The translations under genes were made by a program, and so were the position numbers. DNA of 64,000 nt. Source: Candidatus Nanopelagicales bacterium (GTDB lineage Bacteria; Actinomycetota; Actinomycetes; S36-B12; CAIYMF01). How positions within the stretch are numbered: position 1 is the stretch's first letter; the number at the start of each line of letters is the position of its first letter. The notes below the pieces were generated by a model. That model searched no databases, was not told where the DNA came from, and saw nothing but the letters and a program-made list of their open reading frames with translations. Where the stretch lies: positions 2,775 to 66,774 of the forward strand of contig JBAVKQ010000093.1 of the NCBI GenBank assembly GCA_049688395.1. The letters run 5' to 3'. Positions 634 to 63,397 of the stretch are shown here, piece after piece.

Positions 634-770
634 CCCACCCGACCTGGCGTCACGCGATCGCGGGATCGGTGTCCCTCAGGGCCGCCACGACCGACATCTG
701 CCCCATACTGTGCCGATGGATGCGCGTCGGCGCATCGACGCAAGTCCTGGCCGAGCCTGTGGGAGGGCAC

Positions 771-2924: not shown

Positions 2925-2959
2925 TCATCGGCGGGCGTCGACCACTTTGCCCTGACAGG

Positions 2960-5107: not shown

Positions 5108-5110
5108 GCC

Positions 5111-6328: not shown

Positions 6329-6462
6329 CTCCGAGCACGGACCTGTGTGCTGCGTCACGACGACGGCACTGCTGCGATGCGATTGGGACAGAAGTGGGAG
6401 GCAGCGGGCTTGTTCCCTCGGGGTTCTTGGTTCACTCTTGGCGCAGAGGAGAGGAGCCCTAC

Positions 6463-40155: not shown

Positions 40156-41162
40156 GACCCACCCACCCCGAAGCCCTGCTCGGTCAGGGCTGCGGCGAGC
40201 TCGTACAGCCCGCCGAGGTCGATGCCCGCTGCCAACCAGGCAAGCTCGTAGGTGGGCCGGCCCAGCGACGCCAGGGCGGCCCGCTCGGTCGCCTCCAGGT
40301 CGAACCGGTCCGTGGCGTCGAGCGCCTCCCCGGTCAGCGCGTCGACGACCGCGCCGCTGGTGGGCAGACCCACGGCCGCCAGCCCGGCGGCGATCTCGGC
40401 CCGGGGCAACTGCCCGCTGCGGGCCTGGGTGAGGTCACCGGCGGTGAGGACGGGCTGGCGCACCATGTTGATCAGAACGCCACCGACCGGCAGGCCGATC
40501 CCGCCCAACTCCGCCACCACGTCCACGGTCTCCTGCGTGGGCATCTCCTCGAGCAGGGTCACGACGTGCACCGCGGTCTGTGCCGAGCGGAGCACCTCCA
40601 TGATCGATTCGGCCTGGTTGCGCACGGGCCCGACCCGAGCCAGGCCGGCGACCTGCTCGTTGACGTTGAGGAAGCGCGCGACCCGCCCGGTGGGCGGGGC
40701 GTCCACCACGACGGCGTCGTACCGGACGCCGTCGGGCCGGGATGCATCCAGGGTCTGGCAGATCTTGCCGGTCAGGAACACGTCGCGTAGTCCTGGGGCG
40801 ATCGTGGTGACGAAGTCCAGGACCCCCAGCCTGTCCAGCGCCCACCTCGCCCGACCGAGGTGGTAGACGGTCTGCAGGTACTCCAGCAGCGCGTCCTGGA
40901 CATCGACCGCCAGGGCGTACACCTCGCCACCGCCCCGGGCCACGGCGACGCGACGCTCGGCGTAGGGCAGCGGCGGGCAGTCGAACAGCTGCGCGATGCC
41001 TTGACGGCCCTCCACCTCGATGAGCAGTGTGCGCCGGCCCCCCGCAGCCAGCGCGAGCGCGAGCGCAGCCGCCAGGGTCGTCTTGCCCGTACCCCCCTTG
41101 CCGGTCACCACGTGCAGCCGGACATCGGTCCAGTCCGGGGGGCGCGCAGGGTCGACGGGCAC
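40152..41162 (-). CDS. ArsA/Get3-like P-loop ATPase (second paralogue)
   Basis: Walker A GKGGTGKTT and DAVVVDAPPTG. Overlaps the downstream paralogue by 4 nt. Confidence 0.8.
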   Translation of the reverse strand: MPVDPARPPDWTDVRLHVVTGKGGTGKTTLAAALALALAAGGRRTLLIEVEGRQGIAQLFDCPPLPYAERRVAVARGGGEVYALAVDVQDALLEYLQTVYHLGRARWALDRLGVLDFVTTIAPGLRDVFLTGKICQTLDASRPDGVRYDAVVVDAPPTGRVARFLNVNEQVAGLARVGPVRNQAESIMEVLRSAQTAVHVVTLLEEMPTQETVDVVAELGGIGLPVGGVLINMVRQPVLTAGDLTQARSGQLPRAEIAAGLAAVGLPTSGAVVDALTGEALDATDRFDLEATERAALASLGRPTYELAWLAAGIDLGGLYELAAALTEQGFGVGGS

Positions 41163-41207
41163 GTCCTCGACCTTAGGCCTGATCTCGCGACCCGGCCCGC
41201 CGCCGGA

Positions 41208-43598: not shown

Positions 43599-44675
43599 TC
43601 ACCAGCGCAGCAGGACGAGTTCGGCACAGAACCCCGGGCCCAGGGCGATCAGCAGCCCGGGTGTCCCCGAATCGGGAGTCGGGGCGCCGTCACGGCCCTC
43701 GAGGGTGTCGGCGAGCACATGCAGGACCGAGGCCGAGGACAGGTTCCCGATGCGTGCCAACGACCGCCAAGTGACCCCCAGCTCGTCGTCGGTCAGACCC
43801 AGGGAGGACTCCATGGCCTCCAGCACCTTCGGGCCGCCCGGGTGACAGACCCAGTTCGCGATGTCGGGAACCTTCAGATCCTGATCGGAGAGGAAACCGA
43901 CGACGTCGTCCTCGAGGTACTGGGTCACGACCGTCGGCACGTCGGCCGACAGCACGAGCCGGAACCCGCTGCCGCCGACGTCCCAGCCCATGGTGTGCTG
44001 GGTGTCGGGATACATCCGGCTGCGCGAGGCGAGCACGCGAGGCCCGGTGATGCCCATCCGCCGCGCGCGGTCGGCTCCCACCATCACGACCGCGGCCGCA
44101 CCGTCACCGAACAATCCGCTGGCCACCACGTTGGGCATCGACACGTCCGCGTGCTGCAACGTCAGCGAGCACAACTCGATCGAGAGCAGCACGGCCACCC
44201 CGTCGGGATCGCCCAGCAGGTAGTCGCGGACCCGGGCGATCCCCGCCACCCCGGCCACGCACCCGAGGCCGAAGATCGGCAGGCGTTTGACGTCGGGACG
44301 CAGCCCCAACGCCGGCACGAGCCGGGCCTCCAACGACGGTGCCGCGATCCCCGTCACCGAGGTGGACACCACCAGGTCGACGTCCTCGGGCCTCAGGCCG
44401 GCCTTGGCCAGGGCGCCCCGGATGGCCTGCTCGCCCAGGTCCAGGCCCACCCGGATGAACACATCGTTGGCCGCCCCGAAGTCGTCGAGGTCGGGGTAAT
44501 CCGCCAGGTCGAGGGCCAGGTTCCGGCTGCGCACACCTGTGGCGGCATGGATCTTCTCGACCAGCGCGACGTGGCCACCATCGGGGGACACCATCGTTCC
44601 GAACGCCTTGGTGATCTCCTGCTGCGGGTAGGCGAACGGGGCCAACACTCCATGAACTCCGGCAATAACCACCAT
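43599..44675 (-). CDS. Type III polyketide synthase (chalcone/stilbene synthase family, SrsA-like)
   Basis: Catalytic Cys in FGLGCVAGV, His in VCHPGGPKV, Asn in IGNLSSASV. Confidence 0.9.
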   Translation of the reverse strand: MVVIAGVHGVLAPFAYPQQEITKAFGTMVSPDGGHVALVEKIHAATGVRSRNLALDLADYPDLDDFGAANDVFIRVGLDLGEQAIRGALAKAGLRPEDVDLVVSTSVTGIAAPSLEARLVPALGLRPDVKRLPIFGLGCVAGVAGIARVRDYLLGDPDGVAVLLSIELCSLTLQHADVSMPNVVASGLFGDGAAAVVMVGADRARRMGITGPRVLASRSRMYPDTQHTMGWDVGGSGFRLVLSADVPTVVTQYLEDDVVGFLSDQDLKVPDIANWVCHPGGPKVLEAMESSLGLTDDELGVTWRSLARIGNLSSASVLHVLADTLEGRDGAPTPDSGTPGLLIALGPGFCAELVLLRW

Positions 44676-44765
44676 CCGGGCAGCATAGGTGCCAAACCCC
44701 GCTTGCGCCGCCGACGCAGTTCGGGGGATCGCTCTCCGACGGGGTGTGGCCCGGGTGCGGACCGG

Positions 44766-49295: not shown

Positions 49296-49660
49296 CAGCG
49301 ATCCGCCGATCCGGCGCTGCGCAGGACGCCGAGCACCCGGTCCTCCACGGCCACGAGCCCGGCGCGCAGTTCCTCGGGTTCCCGGGCGTACATGCTGTGC
49401 ACCCACAGTTCGGCCAGGTCGGGATCGACCGTGACGGTCAGCGTCCCCGGTGTCAGGGTGATCAGGGCCGACAGGGTGGCCACCTCCATCGGGGTGCGGC
49501 AGCGCAGGGGCAGGATCACGATCCCCGGGACCAGCCTCGGGGACGGCACGATGATGTCGCGGCCCACCTGGATCGAGGAGACCACGATCGCCCGCACCGT
49601 CCATGCCAGCAGCCCGACCAGGGCGCCGGCTCTGCGCACGCTCTCGACCACCCAGGTCAT
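49295..49660 (-). CDS. mrpE: Mrp antiporter subunit E (short form)
   Basis: Assigned from its position between D and F. LITLTPGTL motif. Confidence 0.75.
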   Translation of the reverse strand: MTWVVESVRRAGALVGLLAWTVRAIVVSSIQVGRDIIVPSPRLVPGIVILPLRCRTPMEVATLSALITLTPGTLTVTVDPDLAELWVHSMYAREPEELRAGLVAVEDRVLGVLRSAGSADR

Positions 49661-51249
49661 CGTCCCAACACCGCCTCGACGTAGGCGCTGGGATCGCCCA
49701 GGGTGGCGCCGGCCTGCTCGGTCAGGGCCAGCAGCGGCTCCGGGTACAGGCCCACCGCCAGGCTCAGGCAGGCCAGGATCAGCCCGGGGGCGACCAGGCC
49801 GGCCGACCAGCGCCGCTCGTGCGGCTCGGGGTCCGGCTCGGTGTCCGAATCCAGGGCCACCGGGGCCACGGTAGCCACGGCGGCACCTTCGGTCGCCGGC
49901 TCCGATTCGAAGCCCGGGGCGGGTTCATCGGGGGAACCCAGCGGCGGGCCCGCCTGCACCGCCTGCCTCGGGGCCTCGCCCCAGAACACCCCGGTCCCGA
50001 GCTTGAGCATCGACATCAGGGTGCCCACGCTGACCAGCAGGGCCGCGGCGAACACCAGCGGGCTGTCCGCCGCCAGAGCCGCGGAGAGGACCCCGAACTT
50101 GGCCCAGAACCCGGAGAACGGCGGGATGCCGGTCAGCGACAGGGCGCCGAACAGGAACGCCAGCGCCACCCAGCGGTGCTCGGCGGCGACCGCACCGAGG
50201 CTGCCGATCCGCCCCGTCCCGCGGCGGACCTCGACGGCTCCCACGCTCAGGAACAGCGAGGTCTTCACCACCGTGTGGTGCACGAGGTAGAACACGACGG
50301 CCGCCAGGCCGACCGGCCCGGCCAGCGCCAGCCCGACCAGGATGTAGCCGACCTGGCTGACCATGTGGAACGCCAGCACCCCGCGCACCGTGCCCTCGCC
50401 CAGGGCGCCGAGCACACCGACCACCATGCTCACCACGGTCAGGACGATGATGGTGTTCTCGACCACCGGCCCCGGGTCGTAGACCACGGTGACGACCCGG
50501 ATCAGGGCGTACACCCCGATCTTGGTCAGCAGGCCTGAGAACAGGGCGGTGATCGCGGGGGTGGCCTGGGGGTAGGTGGCCGGCAGCCAGGTGTGGGTGG
50601 GCACCAGCCCGCCCTTCATGCTCAGCGCCACCAGCACGACCGCCACGGCGACCCCGATCGCCGGGGTGGCCCCCGCCCCCGCGAGCGCGGCGAGGTTGAC
50701 CGTGCCCGCGGTGCCGTAGACGGCCCCCAGGCCGATCAGGAACAGGGTCGAGGCGGTCAGGTTCACCGTCAGGTACAGCCGCGCGGCCCGGATCGCCCCC
50801 GGGGTGCCGCGCCAGGCCAGCAGCACGTAGGAGGGCAGCAGGGCCACCTCGATCATGACGAACAGGTTGAACAGGTCCGCGGTCAGGTAGGCGCCGTAGA
50901 CCCCCGAGGTCATCATCAGCACCAGCGGGGCGAACAGCCGGTCCTGGCCGTGGCCGGTACGCAGCGCGAAGCTCACGCTGGCCAGCACGAGCATGCCGGA
51001 GACCACCAGCATCAGGGCGCTGAGCAGGTCGGCGACGAACGGGATCGCGATCCCGGCCGGCCACCCGGCCACCTGGGCGGCGATCACCGTGCCGTCGCTG
51101 GTGGCGGCCACCAGGGCACCTCCCCCGAGGATGACCAGCGCGGGGGTCAGCAGCACCAGGGCGCGGCCCACCGCCGGGGGTCGCACCACCAACGAGAGGA
51201 CCGCGGCCAGCAGCGGCCCGGCGACGAAGAGTGGGAGCCACGCGCTCAC
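49657..51249 (-). CDS. mrpD: Mrp antiporter subunit D (NuoN/ND2-like)
   Basis: Proton-conducting membrane transporter family (THTWLPATYP..., GIPPFSGFWAKF), with an acidic Pro-rich insertion near the C-terminus. Confidence 0.9.
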   Translation of the reverse strand: MSAWLPLFVAGPLLAAVLSLVVRPPAVGRALVLLTPALVILGGGALVAATSDGTVIAAQVAGWPAGIAIPFVADLLSALMLVVSGMLVLASVSFALRTGHGQDRLFAPLVLMMTSGVYGAYLTADLFNLFVMIEVALLPSYVLLAWRGTPGAIRAARLYLTVNLTASTLFLIGLGAVYGTAGTVNLAALAGAGATPAIGVAVAVVLVALSMKGGLVPTHTWLPATYPQATPAITALFSGLLTKIGVYALIRVVTVVYDPGPVVENTIIVLTVVSMVVGVLGALGEGTVRGVLAFHMVSQVGYILVGLALAGPVGLAAVVFYLVHHTVVKTSLFLSVGAVEVRRGTGRIGSLGAVAAEHRWVALAFLFGALSLTGIPPFSGFWAKFGVLSAALAADSPLVFAAALLVSVGTLMSMLKLGTGVFWGEAPRQAVQAGPPLGSPDEPAPGFESEPATEGAAVATVAPVALDSDTEPDPEPHERRWSAGLVAPGLILACLSLAVGLYPEPLLALTEQAGATLGDPSAYVEAVLGR

Positions 51250-51662
51250 GGGCCGACCTCCGGCTCGGGCCTCGGCTGCTCGTCCCTCGGTAGTTCTGGC
51301 CTCGGCAGGACAGTGGCCCCGGCACCGCCACCGGCACTGGCACCGGCATCGGCTTCGGCACCGGCAGGTTCGGGCTCCGCGCCCCGGGACACCAGGGACA
51401 GCAGGTAGATCGTCACGCCGAACGTGATCACGATGGCTGTGAGCACGAACGCCTGCGGCAGGGGATCCGCGGCGGTGCCGGGGTCGAGTCCGGGGCCGGT
51501 GATGGGTGCCGAACGCCGGTCGGTGACCCCGGCGGAGATGATCACGAGGTTCGCGGCGTGTCCGAGCAGGATGAAGCCCAGGATGAGCCGGATCGCGCCG
51601 CCACGCAGGACCAGCCAGGCCCCCACGGCGGCCAGCAGCCCCGCAGCGATCGCCAGGGTCAT
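51246..51662 (-). CDS. mrpC: Mrp antiporter subunit C (NuoK-like) with low-complexity C-terminal tail
   Basis: NuoK-like core (ILGFILLGHAANL..., PLPQAFVLTAIVI) plus an Ala/Glu/Pro-rich tail. Confidence 0.85.
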   Translation of the reverse strand: MTLAIAAGLLAAVGAWLVLRGGAIRLILGFILLGHAANLVIISAGVTDRRSAPITGPGLDPGTAADPLPQAFVLTAIVITFGVTIYLLSLVSRGAEPEPAGAEADAGASAGGGAGATVLPRPELPRDEQPRPEPEVGP

Positions 51663-54439
51663 GGCGTCACCTCGCTGCGCGCAGTGCTGCCGGCCTCGCT
51701 GCGTGCCCCGCCGAGGGCGTCGCTGCGGGCTTCGCGGTGCAGCCCGAGGTTGTCCAGGGCCGACTGGACCAGTCCGAGGACCACGAGGACCACGCCGAGG
51801 TCGAAGACCAGCGCGGAGGTCAGGTACCCCTCGGCCCCCGGCAGCGCGATTTTCATGGGCTGGCCGAACGCACCCGCCACGACCAGGCCCATCAGCCCGG
51901 TCCCCACGGCCAGCAGCAGTCCCGCCCCGACGATCAGGGGCACACCGGGCAGTCGGACTCGGATCCCGCAGGCGCGGGCCACTGCCAGGGCGGCTCCGGC
52001 CACCAGCCCGGCGATGAACCCGCCACCCGGCTCGTCGTGACCGCGCCAGAACAGCACCACCCCGGTGAGCATCAGCAGGGGCAGGACCACGATCGCCCCG
52101 ACCCGCAGGACCGCCTCCTCGCCGGGGCCGAGGGCGCCACTGCGGACCGCCCGGGTCGCCCCGGCGCCCCGCACCGCAACGACCAGACCGAGGGCTGCCG
52201 CGGCCAGGACGACGATCTCACCGAGGGTGTCCAGCCCGCGGAAGTCGACCAGGATCGTGTTGACGACGTTGCTGCCGCCCGTGGCCCGCTCGGCCTCGGC
52301 CAGGAAGTACTCGGAGACCGCCGATCGTTCCCGGCGCCCGGTGAACACCACCACGAGCAGGGCCGTGAGCACCCCGACGGCCCCGGCACCCAACGCGTGG
52401 GCCGGGCCGACGCGCCGAGCGGCCCGATCAGGCAGGCCCGCCAGGACCGGGGCGGCCACGACCACGGTCAGGATCTCCACGAGCAGCAGGGTGAGTGCCA
52501 CGTCGGGGGCGCCCAGCAGCATCAACCAGGCCGACAGGGTCACTCCGATCACCCCGGCCAGGACCAGGGCGGCCAGCCCGTCGCGCACCCGGGCCATCGC
52601 CAGCACGGCCGGGACGAGCACGGCCAGCACCAGCCAGTCACCGGGCTGAGCAATGCCGGGCACCACCGGGCCGAGGTCCGAGATCACCAGCCAGCCGACC
52701 CCCGTCAGGCCGAGCAGGAGCACGAGGACGCCGGCCAGATGCGTGCCCGCGGTGTCCACGCGGCTGGTGCGCGCGACCCGGGCACCGAACCGCAGTGCCG
52801 CGTCCCACCCGCGGTCGAAGACACCGGGGCCGCGCAGGTCCGGGGCCTCCCAGTGCGCCATCTCGGCCAGTCGGTTGCGCCGCAGGTGCCCCACGATACC
52901 CAGACCGATCGCGGTGGCCGATAGCCCGAGGGCCAGCGAGAAGCCGTGCCACAGGGCCAGGTCCGCCTCGGTCCCGGCGAACCCGGTGTCGACCACCGCC
53001 CGGGTCACCAGGTCGTTGAGCAGGAACGGCGCCAGACCGAGGACCAGTCCGAGGATGGCCGGGACAGCTGCCGGTGCCAGGAAGAGCGCGGACGGCTCGT
53101 ACAGGTTGCTCTGGCGCAGGGGGCCGGCGAACGTCCCGGCGATGATCCGCGCGCTGTAGGCGAAGGTCAGCGCCGCGCCGATCACCGCCACGCCCACGGC
53201 CAGGTTCCCCGACCATGCCGCGCCCTGCGCCCAGCGCGCCTCCCCGGTGCCAAGGAAGGCGTAGAACGCCTCCTCCTTGGCCACGAAGCCGACCATCGGC
53301 GGCAGCCCGGCCATCGACATCGCAGCCAGGGCGGTCAGCCCGGCGGTCACCGGCATGACCCGCCACAGGCCGGACAGCTGGCGGATGTCGCGGCTGCCGG
53401 CCTCCTTGTCGATGATGCCCACCAGCATGAACAGCGTCGCCTTGAACAGGGCGTGTGCCGCGGCGAGCACCGTGGCCGCGGCCAGGGAGGCCGCCGTCCC
53501 CACCCCGACGAGGGCGACCATGAGACCCAGCTGGCTGACGGTGGAGTAGGCCAGCAGCGCCTTGAGGTCGTTCTGCTTGAGAGCCTGGTAGGCGCCGAAC
53601 ACGGCCGTGGACAGGCCCACGCCCATCAGGGTCAGGTGCCAGGCGGGGGCGTCGGCGAACAGTGGGGAGAACAGCAGCAGAAGGTAGATGCCGGCCTTGA
53701 CCAGCGATGCGGCGTGCAGGTAGGCGCTGACCGGAGTGATCGCCACCATTGCCCCGGGCAGCCAGAAGTGGAACGGCAGCTGGGCGGACTTCGTGAACGC
53801 GGCCAGCACCACGAGCCCCCCGACCACGCCGAGCTCGGAGCCGGTCAGCGCCTCCGGCGCCACGGCCAGGACGGTGGCGATGTCGCTGCTCCCAGTACGC
53901 ACGACCAGCAGCACCACCGCCCCCAGCAGGGCCAGTCCACCGCCCGCCGTCACGAACAGCGCTCGGGTCGCCGGCCGGGAGCCGGTAGTGCCCTGGCCCG
54001 CGATGAGCAGGAAGCTGCTCAGGGTCGTGAGCTCCCAGAAGACCACGAGCACGACGAGGTCACCGGCCAGGACCAGGCCCAGCATCGCCGTCGCGAAGAC
54101 CGCCAGGATCCCGTACAGGCGCCCGTGGTCCTGGCCGGGCGAGAGGTACTGCGGGGCGTAGCTCAGCACCAGGGCCCCCACCCCGAGCACGAGCATGGCG
54201 AACAGCAGGGCGAGTCCGTTGAGGCGCAGCGTGAGGTCCACTGCGAACGACGGAACCCAGCTCCACGACTGGGTGACCGTTTGGCCGGCAAGCACCTCGG
54301 GGGCATCGACGAGCAGCAGCCCCGCCGCCGCCAGGAATGCGCCGGCCAGCGGGTACCCGGTCGCCCGGCCCAACAATCTGCTCAGCAGCGGCACCAGGGC
54401 AGCAGCACCCGCCATGAGCACGAGCGCCGCGATCAACAC
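51659..54439 (-). CDS. mrpA: Mrp antiporter fused subunit A/B (NuoL-like)
   Basis: 926 aa, GTG start. NuoL-like N-terminal two thirds (FTKSAQLPFHFWLPGAM) and an MnhB-like C-terminal region (GGSNVVNTILVDFRGLDTLGE). Confidence 0.92.
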   Translation of the reverse strand: MLIAALVLMAGAAALVPLLSRLLGRATGYPLAGAFLAAAGLLLVDAPEVLAGQTVTQSWSWVPSFAVDLTLRLNGLALLFAMLVLGVGALVLSYAPQYLSPGQDHGRLYGILAVFATAMLGLVLAGDLVVLVVFWELTTLSSFLLIAGQGTTGSRPATRALFVTAGGGLALLGAVVLLVVRTGSSDIATVLAVAPEALTGSELGVVGGLVVLAAFTKSAQLPFHFWLPGAMVAITPVSAYLHAASLVKAGIYLLLLFSPLFADAPAWHLTLMGVGLSTAVFGAYQALKQNDLKALLAYSTVSQLGLMVALVGVGTAASLAAATVLAAAHALFKATLFMLVGIIDKEAGSRDIRQLSGLWRVMPVTAGLTALAAMSMAGLPPMVGFVAKEEAFYAFLGTGEARWAQGAAWSGNLAVGVAVIGAALTFAYSARIIAGTFAGPLRQSNLYEPSALFLAPAAVPAILGLVLGLAPFLLNDLVTRAVVDTGFAGTEADLALWHGFSLALGLSATAIGLGIVGHLRRNRLAEMAHWEAPDLRGPGVFDRGWDAALRFGARVARTSRVDTAGTHLAGVLVLLLGLTGVGWLVISDLGPVVPGIAQPGDWLVLAVLVPAVLAMARVRDGLAALVLAGVIGVTLSAWLMLLGAPDVALTLLLVEILTVVVAAPVLAGLPDRAARRVGPAHALGAGAVGVLTALLVVVFTGRRERSAVSEYFLAEAERATGGSNVVNTILVDFRGLDTLGEIVVLAAAALGLVVAVRGAGATRAVRSGALGPGEEAVLRVGAIVVLPLLMLTGVVLFWRGHDEPGGGFIAGLVAGAALAVARACGIRVRLPGVPLIVGAGLLLAVGTGLMGLVVAGAFGQPMKIALPGAEGYLTSALVFDLGVVLVVLGLVQSALDNLGLHREARSDALGGARSEAGSTARSEVTP

Positions 54440-54521
54440 GCGCCCACTCTAACGAGTCGAGGCCGAGTCGATGATCGGGCGAAGCCGACAGCAATCGACG
54501 ATCCGCCGCCCACGGCGTGGA

Positions 54522-55307
54522 TCATCCCGGGCGCACCGCGACCATCCGGTGCAGCGACACCGGCACCACCCGCCCGGGCCCGGCGAGGCGGGCCAGGCGC
54601 GCCGCGGCGAGCTCGCGGCGAGCGTGTGACACATGGGGCAGGTAGAGCGCCTCGACAGCCAGGCGCGCGTCGGCGGAGGTGGCCAGCGGGTGGGCGAACC
54701 GCGCCGCACCCGTGCTGAGGACACGCATCCCAGCGCCGGTGATCACCTGGCCGAGTCCCCGCCCGGTGACGCGTTGGGGCAGCTCGGGCAGGTGCCGCAG
54801 GGCCAGCAGGAGCGGGGCGACGACGCGCAGGTCGCCTGCGAGCAGGGGGCCGCTGACGGGGCGGATCGCGGCGAACGTGCCCCCGGGTCGAAGGACCCGG
54901 GCGACCTCGGCCATCGCCGCGCCGATCGGTCGCAGCAGCATGATGGCCATCGAGCAGACCACGACGTCCAGCGACCCGGACGGCACGGGTAGGGCCAGGG
55001 CGTCAGCAGTGAGCACGTGGCCCCGACCCCGTTGCGCGGCCACCCCGAGCTCAGCGGGGGAGAGGTCGATGCCGAGGTAGTCCGAATCGGCGAACAGCGG
55101 CTGCATCGGGGCGCTGCCGCACGCGATGTCCAGCACCCGGGCCGGACGGATCGGGACCGCGTCGCGCAGCCACCGGTAGGGGTCCCCGAACTCGGGGTGC
55201 CGTGACCCGGACAGGAGTTCCTCGGTGATCCCCGGATGTTCGGCGTGGAACCGAGCCAGGTAGCTGGTCCACGGGTCTGCGGCTCGCTGGTCTGCGGGCC
55301 TGATCAC
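54522..55307 (-). CDS. Class I SAM-dependent methyltransferase
   Basis: Motif I VLDIACGSA. Post-I region LGIDLS. VARVLRPGG also present. Confidence 0.8.
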   Translation of the reverse strand: MIRPADQRAADPWTSYLARFHAEHPGITEELLSGSRHPEFGDPYRWLRDAVPIRPARVLDIACGSAPMQPLFADSDYLGIDLSPAELGVAAQRGRGHVLTADALALPVPSGSLDVVVCSMAIMLLRPIGAAMAEVARVLRPGGTFAAIRPVSGPLLAGDLRVVAPLLLALRHLPELPQRVTGRGLGQVITGAGMRVLSTGAARFAHPLATSADARLAVEALYLPHVSHARRELAAARLARLAGPGRVVPVSLHRMVAVRPG

Positions 55308-55355
55308 GTGGGCCCAGGTGCGGGGGCCCGAGCGCCTGGCGCCATCGGGCGGGGA

Positions 55356-56171
55356 CTATCCGGCCAGGGTGCCGGCGAAGACCTGCCAGGCCAGCAGGGA
55401 CTTGGCCACCAGGCTCAGGGTGATGTAGGCCCGTTCCCCGACCAGGTAGTCCGCCCAGCGCCCCACCTGCTTGTACTGCAGGTACTGGGTGACGGCGAAC
55501 ACGTTGAAGAACAGGAACAGCGACACGATGATGCCGTACACGAACGCCGGCGGCTCGGCCGAGGACGTCGACCCCGGGGCCACCACGAAGAACGCGATGA
55601 TCAACCACGGCACGATGCCGGTCATGGACCCGAAGATGAACGGCAGGAACCCGCCGCCGGGCTGCTCGTAGACCTCCTGCAGCCACCCGAAGAGGATCAT
55701 CGCCGCGTTCACCGCGAAGATCGCCGCGAGGGCCGCGACGTCGGTCAGGCCGGTGATCTGGGCGATCAGCACGATCATCATCGACGAGGTCAACGCGTAC
55801 TCGACCCACCGGGCCCGATTGCGCTGCTCGGCCAGGTCCGCGGCATATCCCCGGGACCACACCGTGGCCACGATCAGCAGCGCCAGGCCCGACAGGGCCA
55901 GGAAGCTGGCGACAGCCAGCCCGATCGGGGTGTTCAGCAGCGTCACCGGATCACCGGGCGCGGTCCCTGGCGGGCCCTCGAGGTAGGCCGCGGTGACCGG
56001 CAGGGTGAAGCCGTTGGACAGCGCGACCACGGCCACCGCCTGCGCGAGCAGGATCAGTCCCACGATGATGTTGTACCGGCGCAGTCCGGCGAGGCGACCC
56101 GGCTCGATCGGCACGGTCGCGGTGGGGGAGTCCGGCATTGGGCTGCCGGCAGGTGAGGGGTTCATGTCCAT
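55356..56171 (-). CDS. Heliorhodopsin
   Basis: Seven TM helices with family-diagnostic blocks: RWVEYALTSSMMIVLIAQI, ILFGWLQE, GIVPW, APGS, FVYGIIVSLFLFFNVFAVTQYLQYK, GERAYITLSLVAKSLLAWQVF. The Lys codon is at 55401..55403 and the Glu codon at 55800..55802. The start is ATG 56171 or 56165. Confidence 0.88.
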   Translation of the reverse strand: MDMNPSPAGSPMPDSPTATVPIEPGRLAGLRRYNIIVGLILLAQAVAVVALSNGFTLPVTAAYLEGPPGTAPGDPVTLLNTPIGLAVASFLALSGLALLIVATVWSRGYAADLAEQRNRARWVEYALTSSMMIVLIAQITGLTDVAALAAIFAVNAAMILFGWLQEVYEQPGGGFLPFIFGSMTGIVPWLIIAFFVVAPGSTSSAEPPAFVYGIIVSLFLFFNVFAVTQYLQYKQVGRWADYLVGERAYITLSLVAKSLLAWQVFAGTLAG

Positions 56172-56252
56172 TACGCTAGCCCAACGCTGGCCCCGGCACC
56201 CCCGCACCGCGGACCCGGCGGTGCGGGGGTGCGCAGATCTGCGCCGTGCCGG

Positions 56253-56468
56253 TCAGCCCTGCTGGGGCAGCGGGCGAGTGGAGATCCCGAGCACGGAGTA
56301 CAGGGGGCAGTAGCCCGAGACGGCGGTCCAGCCCGCCATCCCGGCCACCCCGAACAGGCCGACGCCCAGCGGGTTGAACACCCCGCCGAGCGCAAGACCC
56401 GTGCCCAGCGCGGTCACAGCGATCCCGCCGCGGATGACGCGGTCGAGGTTTCCTTCGTTCTTGGTCAT
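56253..56468 (-). CDS. DUF2892 (YgaP-like) small membrane protein
   Basis: ATG 56468 follows aaggag. NLDRVIRGGIA... has two TM helices and ends ...SGYCPLYSVLGIST, typical of DUF2892. Confidence 0.7.
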   Translation of the reverse strand: MTKNEGNLDRVIRGGIAVTALGTGLALGGVFNPLGVGLFGVAGMAGWTAVSGYCPLYSVLGISTRPLPQQG

Positions 56469-56519
56469 GGCAGCTCCTTGGTTTTCGTGCCCGGCAATGG
56501 TGTATCCGCTCACCACAAC

Positions 56520-56543
56520 TGGAATACCCCCCTGGGTATTCCA
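56520..56543. promoter_or_regulatory. Perfect 10-bp inverted repeat with 4-nt spacer (operator-like, or terminator hairpin)
   Basis: tggaataccc-ccct-gggtattcca. It lies 52 nt upstream of the DUF2892 start and 22 nt downstream of the epimerase stop. Confidence 0.5.
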
Positions 56544-57630: not shown

Positions 57631-60108
57631 TCAGAGTCGTGGGTCGACCGGCTCGGACTCCAGGGCGAGCACCGCGAAGACCGACTGGTGCACCGTCCAG
57701 AGCGGCTCGTGGTCGACGAACGCGCTGAGGGCTTCGAGACCCAGGCCGTGCTCACTCAGGGCGAGGTGGCGCTTCCTGCCCAGATGCCGGTCGCGCAGCA
57801 CGTCCAGCGAGTCGGTGTAGTCAGGTCCGTAGATGATTCTCAGGTACTCCCGGCCACGCACCTCGATGCCGGGTTGGATGCGTCCCTGGGTCAGGTGCGC
57901 GGGCTTGACGACCATCCATTCGCCGCCGGCGGCAGTCAGGTCGAGCCACCACTGCGTCGCCGCGTCGCGTTGCGCGCGCGAGGCGAGATCGACGAAGCGG
58001 TGGCGCGTGGGGGTGATCAGGTCGCCGGTCACCGCGGCCAGCGCGGCGAGGTGCCACTCGTGGGGCTCGGTGAGCGCCAGCGCGCGGCCCTCGGCCGCCA
58101 GGATCTGGAACGGCGCCAGAGTCACCCCCTCGAGCCCGTCGGTCGGCCCGACGTACGCCGCGTAGGCGGCACGGAACGCCTGGGCGTTGGCGAGCCTGCC
58201 CTGCGTCCTGGCGGCCAGGTGCCCCACGTCCAGGCCGCGGGCCGCGGCCTGCTCGAGGACCGCCAGCGCTTCGGGAAGGGCATGACGGGCGGCGGCCCCG
58301 ACCGAGGCGTACTGCGACGTGATCACATCGACCGCCTTGGCCGACCACGGCAGCAGCTCGCAGTCCAGAGCCAGCCAGTCGGTGTCCAGCGACTCGAACA
58401 GCGCAGCCGTCGTGACGCGGAGCTGATCGACCAGCGCCGCCATGTCAGCGAAGAACGGGCGACCGGTGCGGGTGTAGACCACGCCGGTCGTACCGTCGCC
58501 GACCCCGAAGCGACGCTCGGCAGCGGCCTGGTCCCTGGCGAGGACGGCGATGGCTCGGGAGCCCATGTGCTTCTCCTCGCACACGACGCGCGTGGCACCC
58601 CAGCCGGCGTACTCGTCGAAGGCCTGCTCCGGGTGTTCCAGGAATCCATGGACCTGGGAGGTCGCGACCGGCGACATCGTCGGGGGCAGGTAGATCAGCC
58701 AGCGCGGGTCGACCGCGAACCGACTCATCACCTCCAGGGCCGCCGCAGCGTTCTCCTCGGGGATCTTCACCCTGCCTGCGTGGGCCGTGTCGAGCCAGCG
58801 GGTGCCGGCGACGTCGTCGATCTCGAGTACTGATGGCTCGCGGTCCCCGCCGGCGGCGGCCAGGGGGCGGATCGGCTCCTACCCCTCGCGCTGCGCCGGG
58901 ACCGAGACGAGATCGCGTTCGGGGTAGCGCAGCGCTGTCAACGAGCCACCGAAGACGACCCCGGTGTCCAGGCAGATCGTGTTGTTGACCCACTGGGCCT
59001 CGGGCACGGGGGTGTGCCCGTAGACGACGGTCGCCCGGCCCCGATACTCCTGGGCCCAGGGGTAGCGGACCGGCAGGCCGTACTCATCGGTCTCCCCGGA
59101 GGTGTCGCCGTAGAGCGCGAAGGATCGCACCCGACCAGAGGATCGACCGTGGTAGGACTCCTCGAGCCCGGCGTGCGCCACGACGAGCCTTCCCTCGTCG
59201 AGGACGTAGTGGCTGATCAGCCCGTTCATGAAATCGAGCGCGCGCACGCGGAACTCGCCCGGTTCGCCGCTCAGCTGGGTGAGCGACTCGGCCAGCCCGT
59301 GCGAGACGGTCACCTTCGATCCCCGCAGTGCACGCACGAGCTTCGCCTCGTGGTTGCCCGAGACGCAGAGCGCGGTGCCCGACTCGACCATGCCCATCAC
59401 CAGCCGGAGCACCCCGGGCGTGTCCGGGCCACGGTCCACGAGGTCGCTGACGAACAAGGCCTGGCGTCGGTCGGGGTGCGTGGCGCCCACTGCGAGGTCC
59501 CCGTCGTAGCGGATCGCCCACCCGAGCGCGGTGAGCAGGGTGCGCAGCTCGGCCGCGCAGCCGTGGATGTCGCCGACGATGTCGAAGGGACCAAGGAGGT
59601 CGGTGCGGTCGTTCCACGGGCGCTCGCGAACGATCTCGGCCGACTCGATCTGCTCGATTCCGCGCAGGACGCGCACACGACGGAAGCCCTCCTTGCCGAG
59701 TCTCCCGAGCGAGCGTCTCAGATCGCGCGCCTGGCGCGACACGACATGACTGCCGAAGTCGCGATCGGGTCGCGTCCGGTTGCGCTCGACGGCCACCGAC
59801 TCCGCGACGTCGATCACGATGGCGTCGACGAGCGAATCGTGGCTGCGGGCCAGGTCGATCAGCGCGGATCGGGCCGCTCTCTGGAGGTTGGTGGCATCGA
59901 CCACGGTCAGCAGTCCCCGGCGCAGCCGGGTGCCGTCGATGTAGTGCAGGACGTCGAAGGCATCCGCGGTGGCCGACTGATCGTTCTCGTCGTCGGCCAC
60001 CAGGCCCCGGCAGAAGTCGCTGGACACGACCTCGGTCGAGGCGAAGTGGGCGCGCGCGAAGGTCGACTTGCCGCTGCCGGACACCCCGACCAGAACGATC
60101 AGGCCCAT
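57631..60108 (-). pseudogene. pnkp: Polynucleotide kinase-phosphatase/ligase Pnkp, interrupted by one in-frame TAG (58879..58881)
   Basis: 58879..60108 encodes the kinase (GVSGSGKST) and calcineurin-type phosphatase (GDIHGC, DLVDRGPD, GNHE). The same frame continues after the TAG into the ligase domain (EEKHMGSR, through 57631). The frame is open across 58771..58878. Confidence 0.85.
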
Positions 60109-60142
60109 CGCGGGAACGGTGACTCGAGACGTGCGCAGTGCC

Positions 60143-61551
60143 TCAGATATCGTCGCCGCCGGCCCTGGTGAAGATCGCCATCACGGTGGGCGTACCACGC
60201 CGCTCGTCGAGGTCCCCGATGCCGCGTCGCTGGACCGAGTAGCCATAGGACGCGGCAACACGGTCAGACCATCGACCGAACTGCGCACGGGTCCACTCGA
60301 AGCGGTGGTCCGGGTGCCGCAGGCCCACCAGTCCCTCGTAGAGCGCGTTGTACTCGCGGTTCGGGGTCGTCACGATCACTGATCCCGGTCGCGCGGCGCC
60401 GAACACGATGTGCTCCAGCGCTGCCAACCGCGAGGGATCGACGTGCTCGATCACCTCCATGAGAACGGCAGCCTCGAAGCCGGCGTAGCGCTGGTCCTGA
60501 TAGGTGAGCGCGCCCTGGAACAGGTCGATACGTTCGGACTGCCGCTCACTCATCCGGTCGACGTGCAGCCGCCGGGCCGCATGCTGAAGCGATCGCATGG
60601 AGACATCGCTGCCCGCGACCCTGGTGAACGACGGGTCCTTCACCAGGCGTTCGAGGAACTGACCGGACCCGCAGCCGAGGTCGATGACCGACCGGGCCCC
60701 GAGCTCGCGCAGCACCCCATGGACGGCCTCGTGACGCTGGGTGTTGAGCGGGATCCGCTGCTCCGCGGAGCGCAGGACCTCCTCGTCGTCAGCAGGCTCG
60801 ATGGTGACCTGGACCTCGTCGCCGAGCTCGGCCAGTCGCGCGAGCGCCACCCGAGTCAGACCACCGGCCCGGGCCAGGTAGCGGCGGGTGATCAGGCCTT
60901 GTCGGGATGGCTGGCCAGCCAACCCGCACCGGAGCGCAGCAGCTGGTCGGCCTCGTCGGACCCTGCCAGTAGTGCTTGGACTCGTCCAGGACGGGCAGCA
61001 GCACGTGCAACTGGCTCAGCGCATCCGCGAGCCGGACGACGCCGGTGAAGCGAAGCCGGATGTAGCGCGAGTCGCCCCAGTCGGCGAACGCCTCGTCGAG
61101 CGCGATCGGCTCGGCGTCCACGGTCAGCCCAGCGGCTCGAAGACGCGATGCGCGATGACGGCGCCACCGCGGCACGGCAGCACCGGGATCACGATCTCCA
61201 GGGCGATGGCCGAGTCGGCCAACACCTGCCTTGCGGTGCAGCGGCCACTGCGCGGTCCGGAACACGTCGGCCAGCGCAACGCCCAGCAACGACGACGCGG
61301 AGTACGGGCGGTCGTTGACGTACTGGGCGAGGCTGAAGTCCGGAGCGTTGCGCGCCCGCGATCGCGCCAGCCGGACCGGATCCACGTCCAGCATCAGCGC
61401 GACGGTGCACCGCTGCGCACTGGCCTCGGGATAGACGACCGTGGCCGTGCCGAACGCCTGCGGGAACTCCGGCCCTCCGGTCGGGGTGCTTGTGCAGGAG
61501 GTAGCCCAGGTCGGTCGCCGGCTGGTGGGTGGTCGTCACGATCAGGAGCAC
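60143..61551 (-). pseudogene. hen1: RNA 3'-terminal 2'-O-methyltransferase Hen1; N-terminal half disrupted by about five frameshifts, methyltransferase half intact
   Basis: Hen1-like segments are read in three frames: VLLIVTTTHQPATDLGYLLHKHPDR / EFPQAFGTATVVYPEA...QYVNDRPYSASSLLGVALADVFRTA / SGRCTARQVLADSAIALEIVIPVLPCRGGAVIAHRVFEPLG / TVDAEPIALDE...LPVLDESKHYW / SDEADQLLRSGAGWLASHPDKA / LITRRYL...VIDLGCGSG...EVIEH. Confidence 0.8.
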
Positions 61552-61678
61552 GTGCTCAGTGTGCCCGAGAGCGCAGCGGGGGACCGGCGTCGGTCCGTCG
61601 GGTGGTCGGGCGGCGTCGGGCGGTCGGGCGGTCGGCGCGTGGACAGTCGCAGTGCCACGCGGATCGTAGGCTGGGGGC

Positions 61679-63397
61679 ATGTCGCCACGCCCCTATGAGG
61701 TTCTGCCCGGCCACCACGGGGGCAGGATCAAGGTCTCGGTGAGCGGCAGCGTGCTCCTGCGCATCCCGCGCCTGAACCGCGGCACCGCCTTCACCCTCGA
61801 GGAGCGGGAGCGGTTCGGCCTGATCGGGCACCTGCCCTCGGGGGTGACCCCGTTGGAGGCCCAACTGCACCGGTCCTACAACCAGTTCCTGCGCGCGGAG
61901 ACCGACCTGGACAAGTTCGCCTTCCTCTCGGCGCTGCGCGATCGCAACACCGTGCTGTTCTACCGGCTGCTCAGCGAGCACCTCGAGGAGATGATGCCGA
62001 TCGTCTACACCCCCACGATCGGGGCGGCGATCATGGAGTTCAGCCAGTCCTACCAACGCCTGCACGGGGTGTTCCTGACGATCGACACCCCGGAGCAGAT
62101 CGAGCGCTCACTGCAGGGCCAGGGCCGCAACCCCGAGGACGTCGACCTGCTCATCGTCACCGACTCCGAGGGCATCCTCGGCATCGGCGACCAGGGGGTG
62201 GGCGGCATCCAGATCGCCCTGGGCAAGAAGTCCCTGTACACCGCTGCTGCGGGCATCGACCCGAACCGGGCCATCGCGATCGTCCTGGACGTGGGCACCG
62301 ACAATCTGGCCCTGTTGTCCGATCCGCTCTACATGGGCCTGCGGCACAGCCGCATCCGCGGAGCGCGCTACGACGACTTCCTCGAGGCGTTCGTCACCGC
62401 GGTGACCACCGTGTTCCCGCACGCGATGATCCACTGGGAGGACTTCGGCGCCGCCAACGCCCATCGCGTGCTCGACAGGTATCGTGACCGGGTCTGCACC
62501 TTCAACGACGACGTGCAGGGCACCGCGGCCGTGGTCGCTGCTGCGGCCCTGGCCGCCGTCGGCTCCCAGGGCGGGCGCCTGCGCGACCAGCGCATCGTCA
62601 TCCACGGCGCAGGGACCGCCGGCGTCGGAGTCGCGGACCTGATGCGCGACATGATGATCAACGAGGGCGCCACAGCCCAGCAGGCCACTGCCGCCTTCTG
62701 GGGGCTGGGCAGTCGTGGGCTGCTCACCACCGCGCTGGGGGACCGGATCCGGCCCTTCCAGCGGCCGTACGCGCGCCAGGCCTCGGAGACCGACGCCTGG
62801 GCGCTGGACGTCGAGGGGCACATCGGCCTGGCCGACGTGATGCGCAACGTCAGGCCCACCATCCTCATCGGGACCTCGGGCCAGCCCGGGGCCTTCACCG
62901 AGCAGATCGTTCGCGAGATGGCCGCGCACGTGGACCATCCGGTGATCATGCCGCTGTCGAACCCCACCGCCCTGGTCGAGGCCACCCCAGCGGACCTGCT
63001 GACCTGGACCGAGGGTCGGGCGCTGATCGCCACCGGGTCGCCGTTCCCCGCGGTCCAACTCGCCGAGCGCGAGTACCGGATCGCCCAGGCCAACAACGCA
63101 TTCGTGTTCCCCGGCCTGGGCCTGGGCGTGGCTGTCTGCCAGGCCACCCGCGTGACCGACGCGATGATCGCCGCGGCCGCGGAGGCGGTCGCCGGGCTCG
63201 CCCACGTGGATCGGCCGGGGGCCTCGCTGCTGCCCCAGGTCTCCGAGTTGCGGATGGTGTCGGCAACGGTCGCGATCGCGGTCGCGCAGGCCGCCGAACG
63301 CGACGGTGTGGCCACGCGTGCGCTGGACAACCCCGTGCAGCAGGTGTTCGACGCCATGTGGACGCCGGTCTACCCGGAGCTCATCCTCGACCGGTGA
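61679..63397 (+). CDS. maeA: NAD(P)-dependent malic enzyme
   Basis: LNRGTAFT, VYTPT, ITDSEGILGIGDQG, and GAGTAGVG, the NAD-binding motif. Confidence 0.92.
   Translation: MSPRPYEVLPGHHGGRIKVSVSGSVLLRIPRLNRGTAFTLEERERFGLIGHLPSGVTPLEAQLHRSYNQFLRAETDLDKFAFLSALRDRNTVLFYRLLSEHLEEMMPIVYTPTIGAAIMEFSQSYQRLHGVFLTIDTPEQIERSLQGQGRNPEDVDLLIVTDSEGILGIGDQGVGGIQIALGKKSLYTAAAGIDPNRAIAIVLDVGTDNLALLSDPLYMGLRHSRIRGARYDDFLEAFVTAVTTVFPHAMIHWEDFGAANAHRVLDRYRDRVCTFNDDVQGTAAVVAAAALAAVGSQGGRLRDQRIVIHGAGTAGVGVADLMRDMMINEGATAQQATAAFWGLGSRGLLTTALGDRIRPFQRPYARQASETDAWALDVEGHIGLADVMRNVRPTILIGTSGQPGAFTEQIVREMAAHVDHPVIMPLSNPTALVEATPADLLTWTEGRALIATGSPFPAVQLAEREYRIAQANNAFVFPGLGLGVAVCQATRVTDAMIAAAAEAVAGLAHVDRPGASLLPQVSELRMVSATVAIAVAQAAERDGVATRALDNPVQQVFDAMWTPVYPELILDR

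What the first reader, a model, noticed from the sequence alone, without database searches (positions are those of the whole stretch)
58771..58881. Single in-frame amber codon splits Pnkp exactly at the phosphatase/ligase domain junction
The kinase-phosphatase ORF (58879..60108) and the ligase ORF (57631..58770) are in the same reading frame. The only interruption is a TAG at 58879..58881 (...LRYPERDLVSVPAQREG*EPIRPLAAAGG...VKIPEENAAA...). The 108 nt after the stop stay open and read like a linker. All catalytic motifs I can recognise are intact: P-loop, GDIHGC/GNHE, and the KHMGS ligase lysine motif. So this is one of three things: a very recent nonsense mutation (possibly a Tyr TAC/TAT to TAG change, though the original codon cannot be told from this window alone), a sequencing error, or a genuine split into a healing enzyme plus a separately initiated sealing enzyme (GTG 58770).
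Basis: seen in the sequence. Interest (0 to 1): 0.65.

Follow-up and report, generated by a model that had tools for sequence, protein, structure and literature searches.

The report
Decaying Hen1–Pnkp RNA-repair operon (pseudogenes)
The amber stop inside Pnkp is real, but it is one of at least seven disabling lesions in an RNA-repair operon (hen1–pnkp) that this actinobacterial lineage is losing, so it is an ordinary pseudogene and not a designed split into two enzymes.

Summary
A single in-frame TAG (window 58881..58879, minus strand) interrupts a Pnkp gene, two or three residues before the experimentally defined end of the kinase-phosphatase half.

The TAG replaces a near-invariant Tyr: 118 of 120 homologues have Tyr, and the codon is TAC in 29 of 32 genomes. 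All 120 closest proteins and all 80 genome loci encode one uninterrupted ~839-aa Pnkp.

The stop is not an isolated or very recent lesion:
- The ancestral pnkp start ATG is ATA, and its Shine-Dalgarno sequence is gone.
- The Trp codon next to the stop is Gly.
- Residues conserved as far as Clostridium are changed (GDLVDRG to SD.., EGMVVKP to EW.., VKCRG to IEVRG).
- The upstream hen1 gene carries five frameshifts in the domain that must activate the Pnkp ligase.

A relative-rate test against the closest intact relative gives 111 vs 37 lineage-specific changes at codon positions 1+2, but 74 vs 74 at position 3. The excess appears in every domain. The neighbouring malic-enzyme gene shows no such excess, and about 40 other ORFs in the window are intact.

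An independently built Logan contig is 100% identical over 4,053 nt.

Verdict: a decaying pseudogene operon. Sequencing error, a functional split and stop-codon recoding are all unlikely. Interest is low.

The parts
60143..61551 (-). hen1 pseudogene. It starts at a GTG as in relatives and ends at TGA 60145..60143. It is readable only by switching frames five times.
   Evidence: Pfam Hen1_L fragments lie in two different ORFs and the methyltransferase domain in a third. tblastn with the intact Hen1 of L001 gives pieces in frames 0,1,2,1,0,2. DNA alignment to 5 relatives and to L084.
61470..61480 (-). hen1 frameshift 1: +1 nt (complex change; GACCGG-GTGCAGGAG in relatives, GACCGGAGGGCCGGAG in the window).
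61248..61256 (-). hen1 frameshift 2: -2 nt.
61121..61129 (-). hen1 frameshift 3: -1 nt (GGGCTGG to GGGCTG).
60955..60963 (-). hen1 frameshift 4: -1 nt (GGTCCCGAC to GGTCCGAC).
60892..60900 (-). hen1 frameshift 5: -1 nt. It puts the methyltransferase domain out of frame with the N-terminal start.
60143..60922 (-). Residual ORF covering the Hen1 methyltransferase domain (259 aa from TTG). It has no indel but shows relaxed-selection substitutions.
   Evidence: Pfam Methyltransf_23/12/25. Relative-rate result of 21 vs 10 at positions 1+2 and 11 vs 20 at position 3.
60148..60150 (-). The ancestral pnkp start codon, now ATA. Relatives have ATG or GTG here, overlapping the hen1 stop, and the closest relatives have a GGAGG-like SD just upstream. 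The SD is absent in the window.
58879..60108 (-). Pnkp kinase-phosphatase fragment (409 aa from the internal conserved Met), ending at the TAG.
   Evidence: Pfam AAA_33 plus Metallophos. PDB hits 4GP6 (kinase) and 4J6O (phosphatase 171-424).
59446..59448 (-). AGC: Gly to Ser in the metallophosphoesterase motif GDLVDRG, next to the position that aligns with metal ligand Asp233 of CthPnkp. Gly is invariant in 120 homologues and in CthPnkp.
   Evidence: PMC3675462 for Asp233
59161..59163 (-). GAG: Lys to Glu in AHAGxKE. Lys is invariant in 120 homologues and in CthPnkp.
58882..58884 (-). GGG: the Trp (TGG) that is invariant in 120 of 120 homologues is replaced by Gly, in the codon immediately before the stop.
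58879..58881 (-). The in-frame amber codon TAG. The ancestral codon was TAC (Tyr), about Tyr422 of CthPnkp.
58771..58878 (-). 36 open codons after the stop: a conserved inter-domain segment and the beginning of the crystallised ligase construct.
57631..58770 (-). Ligase (adenylyltransferase) remnant, 379 aa if read from GTG 58770.
   Evidence: PF16542 full length. PDB hits 4DRF, 3TY5, 3TY8 and 3TY9.
57916..57918 (-). TGG: Gly to Trp in GGEGMVVKP (nucleotidyltransferase motif IV by my assignment). Gly is invariant in 120 homologues and in CthPnkp.
57862..57864 (-). GAG: Lys to Glu in (V/I)K(C/V)RGREY (motif V lysine by my assignment). Lys is invariant in 120 homologues and in CthPnkp.
   Evidence: the role of the motif V Lys in RNA ligases is described in PMC4797309

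Best explanation
Window 57631..61551 (minus strand) holds a hen1–pnkp RNA-repair cassette that is no longer under selection in this lineage and is decaying as a set of pseudogenes. The TAG at 58879..58881 is a TAC(Tyr) to TAG point mutation. It is one lesion among several:
- five frameshifts in the Hen1 N-terminal, ligase-activating domain;
- loss of the pnkp start codon (ATG to ATA) and of its Shine-Dalgarno sequence;
- replacement of several residues that are otherwise invariant, inside conserved motifs.

No working repair complex can be made. The Pnkp ligase cannot seal RNA without Hen1-N, and full-length Pnkp cannot be translated.

Shown here: the lesions, their absence from all relatives, the operon-wide relaxation of purifying selection, and the integrity of neighbouring genes.

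Inferred: that the residual ORFs are not expressed as useful proteins, and that hen1 may have been inactivated first.
For: (1) The TAG replaces Tyr, which is present in 118 of 120 homologues. The codon is TAC in 29 of 32 loci where a strict motif search found it.

(2) All 120 best protein hits are single polypeptides of 824-845 aa carrying the kinase, phosphatase and ligase domains. All 80 species-representative genome loci give one stop-free HSP across the junction.

(3) hen1 has five indels (+1, -2, -1, -1, -1) relative to six relatives. By contrast, 68 of 78 loci give a single full-length stop-free Hen1 HSP.

(4) Relatives start pnkp with ATG or GTG overlapping the hen1 stop, and the closest ones have a GGAGG-like SD. 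The window has ATA and no SD.

(5) The window has 7 unique substitutions at the 271 columns invariant in 120 homologues. The leave-one-out mean is 0.76 and the maximum is 5. Three of the seven are also conserved in Clostridium thermocellum Pnkp.

(6) Relative-rate test of the window against its closest relative L084, with outgroups L001, L002 and L004: positions 1+2 give 111 vs 37 (binomial p = 9e-10), and position 3 gives 74 vs 74. The excess is present in Hen1-N (23 vs 7), the MTase (21 vs 10), the kinase (20 vs 1), the phosphatase (18 vs 7) and linker plus ligase (29 vs 12).

(7) Controls. L001 vs L002 give 57 vs 58 and 83 vs 86. The window's adjacent malic-enzyme gene gives 10, 8, 52 by codon position, against 16, 11, 60 for its relative, so it shows no relaxation.

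(8) About 40 other ORFs across the window have full-length Pfam domains within a single ORF.

(9) Logan contig SRR28002599_92725 is 100% identical to window 57929..61981.

Against: - The residues that align with the known essential kinase and phosphatase residues of CthPnkp are all still present (P-loop, Asp38, Asp187/His189, Asp233/Arg237, Asn263/His264, His323, His376, Asp392 equivalents), as is the ligase lysine motif KHMGS. The 409-aa fragment ends only about 3 residues short of a fragment (CthPnkp 1-425) that is active in vitro.
- There is no indel in 3.2 kb of MTase plus pnkp, while five fall within 675 nt of Hen1-N. That is about 1.5e-4 under uniform placement and remains unexplained.
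- The third-position bias on the window branch has not fully vanished: (pos1+2):pos3 is 1.5, against about 2 expected if neutral.
- The Logan contig may derive from the same reads as the deposited assembly, so it excludes assembler and polishing artefacts but not systematic read errors.
Confidence: 0.88

Rival explanations
1. Residual function or a functional split. The 409-aa kinase-phosphatase fragment (from ATG 60108), possibly the 259-aa Hen1 methyltransferase ORF, and/or a GTG-58770-initiated ligase are still expressed. They would work as separate end-healing, methylating or adenylyltransferase enzymes, by analogy with naturally separate healing and sealing proteins.
For: - The TAG falls about 3 residues before the end of the in-vitro-active CthPnkp(1-425) fragment (PMC3675462).
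- The residues that align with the known essential kinase and phosphatase residues are retained.
- GTG 58770 lies upstream of the minimal adenylyltransferase construct 3TY9.
- There are no indels in these three ORFs.
- A naturally three-protein system, Pnkp1-Rnl-Hen1, exists (PMC4411300).
Against: - Each fragment shows the excess of position-1+2 substitutions: kinase 20 vs 1, phosphatase 18 vs 7, MTase 21 vs 10, ligase 29 vs 12.
- Invariant residues are hit in GDxxDRG and in the positions I assign to ligase motifs IV and V.
- pnkp has lost its native start and SD. No SD precedes ATG 60108, and only an abutting AGG precedes GTG 58770.
- The ligase cannot seal without Hen1-N, which is destroyed (PMC3675462).
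- None of 120 proteins or 80 loci is split here.
- No promoter-like site was found in the region, which is weak evidence.
Confidence: 0.06
2. Sequencing or assembly artefact. The TAG and/or the hen1 frameshifts are consensus errors in a metagenome-assembled contig, and the real genes are intact.
For: - The contig appears to come from an uncultured organism. Its best neighbours are MAGs, and the window's own proteins are seen only on one 71-kb NCBI contig and one Logan contig.
- Two of the five indels are contractions of 2-3-nt homopolymers.
- The closest relative, L084, comes from an assembly whose contig naming (contig_NNNNN) looks like a long-read assembler's, which is my guess only, and also has one hen1 frameshift.
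Against: - The Logan assembly is 100% identical over 4,053 nt.
- No fragmented gene was found among about 40 other ORFs.
- The TAG is a substitution, not an indel.
- Three of the five indels are not in homopolymers.
- The 111 vs 37 excess of position-1+2 substitutions, with 74 vs 74 at position 3, is absent from the adjacent malic-enzyme gene. Read errors cannot produce this.
Confidence: 0.04
3. Recoding: the UAG is read through or decoded as an amino acid, giving full-length Pnkp.
For: None specific. The frame stays open across the stop.
Against: - TAG terminates at least 4 other intact genes in the window.
- The window contains no suppressor tRNA.
- No relative has a stop at this position.
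- The start codon and the partner gene hen1 are both destroyed.
Confidence: 0.01

Closest known systems
[quoted passage not shown]
   Same: - Gene order is hen1 then pnkp, co-oriented.
- Pnkp has P-loop kinase, calcineurin-type phosphatase and PNKP_ligase domains.
- Hen1 has Hen1_L plus a methyltransferase domain.
- The window's Pnkp is 79-85% identical in amino acids to intact actinobacterial Pnkp.
- It matches PDB 4GP6, 4J6O and 4DRF.
   Different: - Here pnkp is cut by a TAG and has lost its start codon and SD.
- hen1 has five frameshifts.
- Invariant motif residues are substituted.
- The whole operon evolves with relaxed constraint.
It is a dead copy, not a working member.
Pnkp1–Rnl–Hen1 system of Capnocytophaga gingivalis (PMC4411300)
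   Same: It is a natural precedent for healing (kinase-phosphatase) and sealing (ligase) functions residing on separate polypeptides that assemble with Hen1.
   Different: - Pnkp1 is a T4-Pnkp-like protein, and its phosphatase belongs to a different superfamily from that of Pnkp.
- Rnl is only about 20% identical to the Pnkp ligase domain.
[quoted passage not shown]
- All three proteins are needed and intact.
- In the window, the two halves are 80-85% identical to a fused Pnkp and were separated by a single point mutation, and Hen1 is broken.
Ordinary bacterial pseudogenes in accessory or mobile loci
   Same: - Multiple independent lesions: nonsense, frameshifts and start loss.
- Relaxed selection confined to the locus, with intact flanking genes.
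- The locus is absent from the nearest relatives (L082 and L083 lack it).
- The closest intact copy, L084, sits among integrases and a transposase.
   Different: Nothing substantive. The one oddity is that all five indels cluster in Hen1-N.

Membership tests
Functional Pnkp–Hen1 RNA repair cassette | Adjacent, co-oriented hen1 and pnkp genes | tested here: met
   hen1 remnant at 60143..61551 and pnkp at 57631..60150, both on the minus strand. The hen1 stop lies 2 nt from the ancestral pnkp start.
Functional Pnkp–Hen1 RNA repair cassette | Pnkp as one polypeptide with kinase, phosphatase and ligase domains | tested here: not met
   An in-frame TAG sits at 58879..58881 and the start codon is ATA. 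All 120 protein homologues and all 80 genome loci are uninterrupted.
Functional Pnkp–Hen1 RNA repair cassette | Intact Hen1 with an N-terminal ligase-activating domain fused to the 2'-O-methyltransferase | tested here: not met
   Five frameshifts lie within the Hen1_L domain.
Functional Pnkp–Hen1 RNA repair cassette | Conserved catalytic and motif residues retained | tested here: inconclusive
   The residues aligning with essential kinase and phosphatase residues, and the KHMGS lysine motif, are present. However, Gly to Ser in GDxxDRG, Gly to Trp in EGMVVKP and Lys to Glu in VKxRG occur at invariant positions. Their biochemical effect was not measured.
Functional Pnkp–Hen1 RNA repair cassette | Purifying selection on the coding sequence | tested here: not met
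   Lineage-specific changes are 111 vs 37 at positions 1+2 and 74 vs 74 at position 3, against the closest relative. Controls are symmetric.
Pnkp1–Rnl–Hen1 three-protein system | T4-Pnkp-like Pnkp1 whose phosphatase belongs to a different superfamily from that of Pnkp | tested here: not met
   The phosphatase here is PF00149 Metallophos, and its best PDB hit is the CthPnkp phosphatase 4J6O. PMC4411300 states that the phosphatase domains of the two systems belong to different superfamilies.
Pnkp1–Rnl–Hen1 three-protein system | Stand-alone Rnl gene co-translated with pnkp1 (Rnl first), with hen1 elsewhere in the genome | tested here: not met
   The order here is hen1, then kinase-phosphatase, then ligase, all in one frame. 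It is identical in layout to fused Pnkp.
Pseudogene (decaying gene cluster) | ORF-disrupting lesions relative to intact orthologues | tested here: met
   One nonsense mutation, five frameshifts and one start-codon loss.
Pseudogene (decaying gene cluster) | Relaxed selection specific to the locus, with intact neighbouring genes | tested here: met
   malic-enzyme control; about 40 intact ORFs
Pseudogene (decaying gene cluster) | No functional protein product | not testable with these tools
   This needs transcriptomics, proteomics or enzyme assays.
Programmed stop-codon recoding | The stop codon is conserved at the site in relatives, or TAG is reassigned genome-wide | tested here: not met
   No relative has a stop there. 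TAG ends 4 other genes in the window.

The most novel reading that the evidence does not exclude
After Hen1-N and the ligase were lost, the surviving 409-aa kinase-phosphatase ORF, and perhaps the stand-alone Hen1 methyltransferase ORF, are retained as a ligase-independent RNA end-healing or end-capping module. This would explain why no indel has hit these ORFs while five hit Hen1-N.
Probability: 0.04. Interest if true: 0.4.

Novelty: already known. Interest (0 to 1): 0.1.

Why it matters
The finding matters little beyond annotation. The public record of this contig appears to list the 409-aa Pnkp fragment and the 259-aa Hen1 methyltransferase fragment as ordinary proteins. They should be flagged as pseudogene fragments of one dead hen1–pnkp cassette.

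It is also a small example of how an accessory RNA-repair cassette is lost. The cassette is absent from the nearest relatives and is mobile-element-associated in the closest intact copy. Finally, it is a caution that a 'clean' domain-boundary stop codon should be read together with the partner gene next door.

Tried and rejected
- **Closer relatives, DNA search.** I looked for relatives carrying either TAG or TAC with two DNA-pattern scans of metagenome contigs. Both found nothing.
- **Exact-protein look-ups.** Look-ups of the malic enzyme and of the 379-aa ligase ORF found nothing on record.
- **Synteny with nearest relatives.** I fetched contigs of the two closest malic-enzyme relatives (90-92% identity) to compare the locus. 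They share only the malic gene with the window and have no hen1 or pnkp remnant in the 10-kb flanks. So the same stop could not be checked in a sister strain.
- **Genome collection.** The genome-contig scan did not return the window's own genome, and the best hit was 83%.
- **Ligase literature.** I tried to read the primary papers on the ligase domain and Hen1 activation (PMC3289333, PMC1370810, PMC3421191). None is held. The motif IV and V assignments therefore rest on the alignment to 4DRF plus my own knowledge of nucleotidyltransferase motifs.
- **Hen1 invariant-column test.** It gave only 2 of 88 unique changes against a mean of 0.43, which is weak on its own. The relative-rate test was more informative.
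- **Rejected: TAG reassignment or a suppressor tRNA**.
- **Rejected: a generally error-prone assembly**.
- **Promoter and terminator scan.** It found no sites, which says little for a high-GC actinobacterium.
Full report
**1. The observation**

On the minus strand, the codon at window 58881..58879 is TAG. Translating 60108..57631 in one frame gives 826 codons, with this as the only internal stop.

The part before the stop (409 aa) matches AAA_33 (a P-loop kinase family) and Metallophos. The part after it matches PF16542 PNKP_ligase over the whole profile, with E = 1.4e-156.

Against solved structures, the TAG aligns with the second Tyr of '..TYYEP' at the C-terminal end of the C. thermocellum phosphatase construct 171-424 (PDB 4J6O). 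This places it at about Tyr422. PMC3675462 states that CthPnkp 1-425 is an active kinase-phosphatase and that 171-424 is an autonomous phosphatase. 'At the domain junction' is therefore accurate.

**2. What the TAG replaces, and whether the junction is ever split**

A search of 5.8 billion proteins returned, as its best 120 hits, only single polypeptides of 824-845 aa. All carry the kinase, phosphatase and ligase domains and are 78-85% identical to the window.

In their alignment the stop column is Tyr in 118 of 120. The column before it is Trp in 120 of 120, but Gly in the window. The 36 codons after the stop are highly conserved rather than linker-like.

In 80 species-representative genomes, the window's read-through protein aligns as one stop-free HSP in every case. 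A strict motif search located the codon in 32 of these loci. It is TAC in 29, TAT in 2 and TTC in 1. The event was therefore TAC to TAG.

GTG 58770, the proposed ligase start, encodes the invariant Val of G-K-V-K-I-P-E-E. It lies 20 codons inside the 4DRF ligase construct, although it is upstream of the minimal adenylyltransferase construct 3TY9.

**3. The stop is not alone**

(a) *Start codon.* Homologues begin 'MTEAL..VTVPAMGL', while the window reads 'ISEAL..VTVPAMGL'. At the DNA level, relatives have ATG or GTG overlapping the hen1 stop (for example GATGCCTGA), and the closest relatives have a GGAGG-like Shine-Dalgarno just upstream. The window has ATA (60150..60148) and GGGCCGGCGGCG where the SD should be. 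ATG 60108 is an internal conserved Met with no SD.

(b) *hen1.* Immediately upstream, hen1 can be read only by switching frame five times. The indels are +1 near 61476, -2 near 61252, -1 near 61125, -1 near 60959 and -1 near 60896. All lie in the N-terminal Hen1_L domain. Hen1 gives a single full-length stop-free HSP in 68 of 78 other loci, and most of the exceptions are linker insertions or contig ends.

(c) *Invariant residues.* At the 271 alignment columns invariant in 120 Pnkp homologues, the window has 7 unique substitutions. The leave-one-out mean for the other sequences is 0.76 and the maximum is 5. Three of the seven are also conserved in the distant Clostridium enzyme:
- Gly to Ser in GDLVDRG, next to the position that aligns with metal ligand Asp233;
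- Gly to Trp in GGEGMVVKP;
- Lys to Glu in VK(C)RGREY.

I read the last two as nucleotidyltransferase motifs IV and V. That assignment rests on my own knowledge. The essential role of a motif V Lys in ATP-dependent RNA ligases is described, for example, in PMC4797309.

**4. Relaxed selection over the whole operon**

The closest relative is L084. Its Pnkp (P0001) is 85% identical in amino acids, and the operon is 84% identical in nucleotides over 3,946 nt. The only gaps are the window's five indels plus one in L084's own hen1.

Using L001, L002 and L004 as outgroups, I counted sites where only the window, or only L084, differs from the outgroups.

| Segment | Window vs L084, codon positions 1+2 |
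|---|---|
| Hen1-N | 23 vs 7 |
| Hen1 MTase | 21 vs 10 |
| Pnkp kinase | 20 vs 1 |
| Pnkp phosphatase | 18 vs 7 |
| Pnkp linker + ligase | 29 vs 12 |
| Whole operon | 111 vs 37 (binomial p = 9e-10) |

At codon position 3, the whole-operon counts are equal, 74 vs 74.

The controls behave as expected:
- L001 vs L002 give 57 vs 58 at positions 1+2 and 83 vs 86 at position 3.
- The malic-enzyme gene that abuts hen1 in the window gives 10, 8, 52 by codon position on the window branch. Its relative gives 16, 11, 60.

So the loss of constraint is specific to hen1–pnkp and covers all five domains. On the window branch, (pos1+2):pos3 is 1.5. The baseline is about 0.5-0.7, and about 2 is expected under neutrality. 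A sizeable part of the branch was therefore spent without selection, and the lesion is not 'very recent'. The ratio is higher in hen1 (44:20) than in pnkp (67:54). This hints that hen1 died first, but I did not test the difference formally and the counts are small.

**5. Sequencing error**

The 409-aa product is on record on one NCBI contig of 71,096 nt and on a Logan contig assembled from run SRR28002599. That 4,053-nt contig is 100% identical to window 57929..61981, so it includes the TAG, the ATA and all five indels. This rules out an assembler or polishing artefact. It may not be an independent sample.

About 40 other ORFs spread over the window each contain full-length Pfam domains within a single ORF. 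The assembly is therefore not generally prone to frameshift errors. Only two of the five indels lie in 2-3-nt homopolymers. Errors cannot create the codon-position signal described in section 4.

**6. Recoding and functional split**

TAG ends four other intact genes in the window and TGA ends 41. The only tRNA in the window is Leu(gag). Recoding is therefore not supported.

A functional split has a precedent in kind. In the Pnkp1–Rnl–Hen1 system, healing and sealing reside on separate proteins (PMC4411300). But that system differs in several ways:
- It uses a T4-like Pnkp1 whose phosphatase belongs to a different superfamily.
- Its Rnl is only about 20% identical to the Pnkp ligase domain.
- Its gene layout is different, and it needs an intact Hen1.

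In the window, the ligase could not seal even if it were made. Sealing requires the N-terminal half of Hen1 (PMC3675462), and that half is destroyed. Every fragment, including the kinase-phosphatase and the methyltransferase ORFs, also shows relaxed selection.

**7. Context**

The nearest malic-enzyme relatives (90-92% identity; unnamed contigs of 455 and 537 kb) share only that one gene with the window. They have no hen1 or pnkp in their 10-kb flanks. Named relatives of the malic enzyme are a Candidatus Nanopelagicales MAG (86%) and Propionibacteriaceae (about 64-72%). The Pnkp is closest to Nocardioides, Marmoricola and Nocardioidaceae sequences.

The closest intact Pnkp copy, on L084, lies between integrases, an SMC-like ATPase and a transposase. 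The cassette therefore looks like an accessory element, probably acquired horizontally, that is being lost here.

**8. Verdict**

It is neither a recent isolated hit nor a designed split. This is an ordinary pseudogene cluster of a known system, and its interest is low.

One oddity remains. All five indels fall in Hen1-N, and none falls in the other 3.2 kb. That is about 1.5e-4 under uniform placement. This keeps open a small probability that the residual kinase-phosphatase and methyltransferase ORFs were retained for some time.

Noticed in passing
window 55359..56252 (-), with 56256..56543 (-) and 54525..55355 (-): A full-length heliorhodopsin gene (PF18761 1-242/242, E 4.6e-94) lies about 1.4 kb downstream of pnkp. 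It is flanked by a YgaP-like membrane protein and a SAM-dependent methyltransferase, all on the same strand.
   Followed up: no
window 60892..61480 (-): All five indels of the dead operon lie in the 675-nt Hen1 N-terminal domain. None lies in the methyltransferase domain or in the 2.5-kb pnkp, although every segment shows relaxed selection. That is about 1.5e-4 if indels fell uniformly. The first indel is a complex multi-base change.
   Followed up: partly
L084 8565..10008 (ERZ25039498 contig_84521): The closest relative has an intact 839-aa Pnkp, but its hen1 is also split by one frameshift near position 9230. The cassette sits among two phage-type integrases, an SMC/AAA_23 ATPase and an rve transposase. 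Whether that frameshift is real or an assembly error is unknown.
   Followed up: partly
L072 2843..4206 (Amycolatopsis sp. NPDC026612): Hen1 aligns as two overlapping HSPs in different frames, which suggests another frameshifted hen1 next to an intact pnkp.
   Followed up: no
window 58879..60108 and 60143..60922 (-): The collection shows the 409-aa Pnkp fragment and the 259-aa Hen1 methyltransferase fragment as proteins from an NCBI record of a 71,096-nt contig. They appear to be annotated as ordinary CDSs rather than pseudogene fragments.
   Followed up: no
window 419..6358: Very long overlapping ORFs lie on opposite strands (1562 aa on + at 419..5107; 1145 aa on - at 2921..6358). The two ORFs scanned there, 669..2921 (+) and 2924..6358 (-), gave no Pfam hit. 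Third-position GC periodicity is strong throughout, so one of them is probably a large uncharacterised gene.
   Followed up: no
window 38986..41207 (-), 43602..44765 (-), 49660..54448 (-): Other genes noted: a tandem pair of ArsA-family ATPase genes, a type III polyketide synthase, and MrpA/MrpD-type cation/proton antiporter genes. All appear intact.
   Followed up: no
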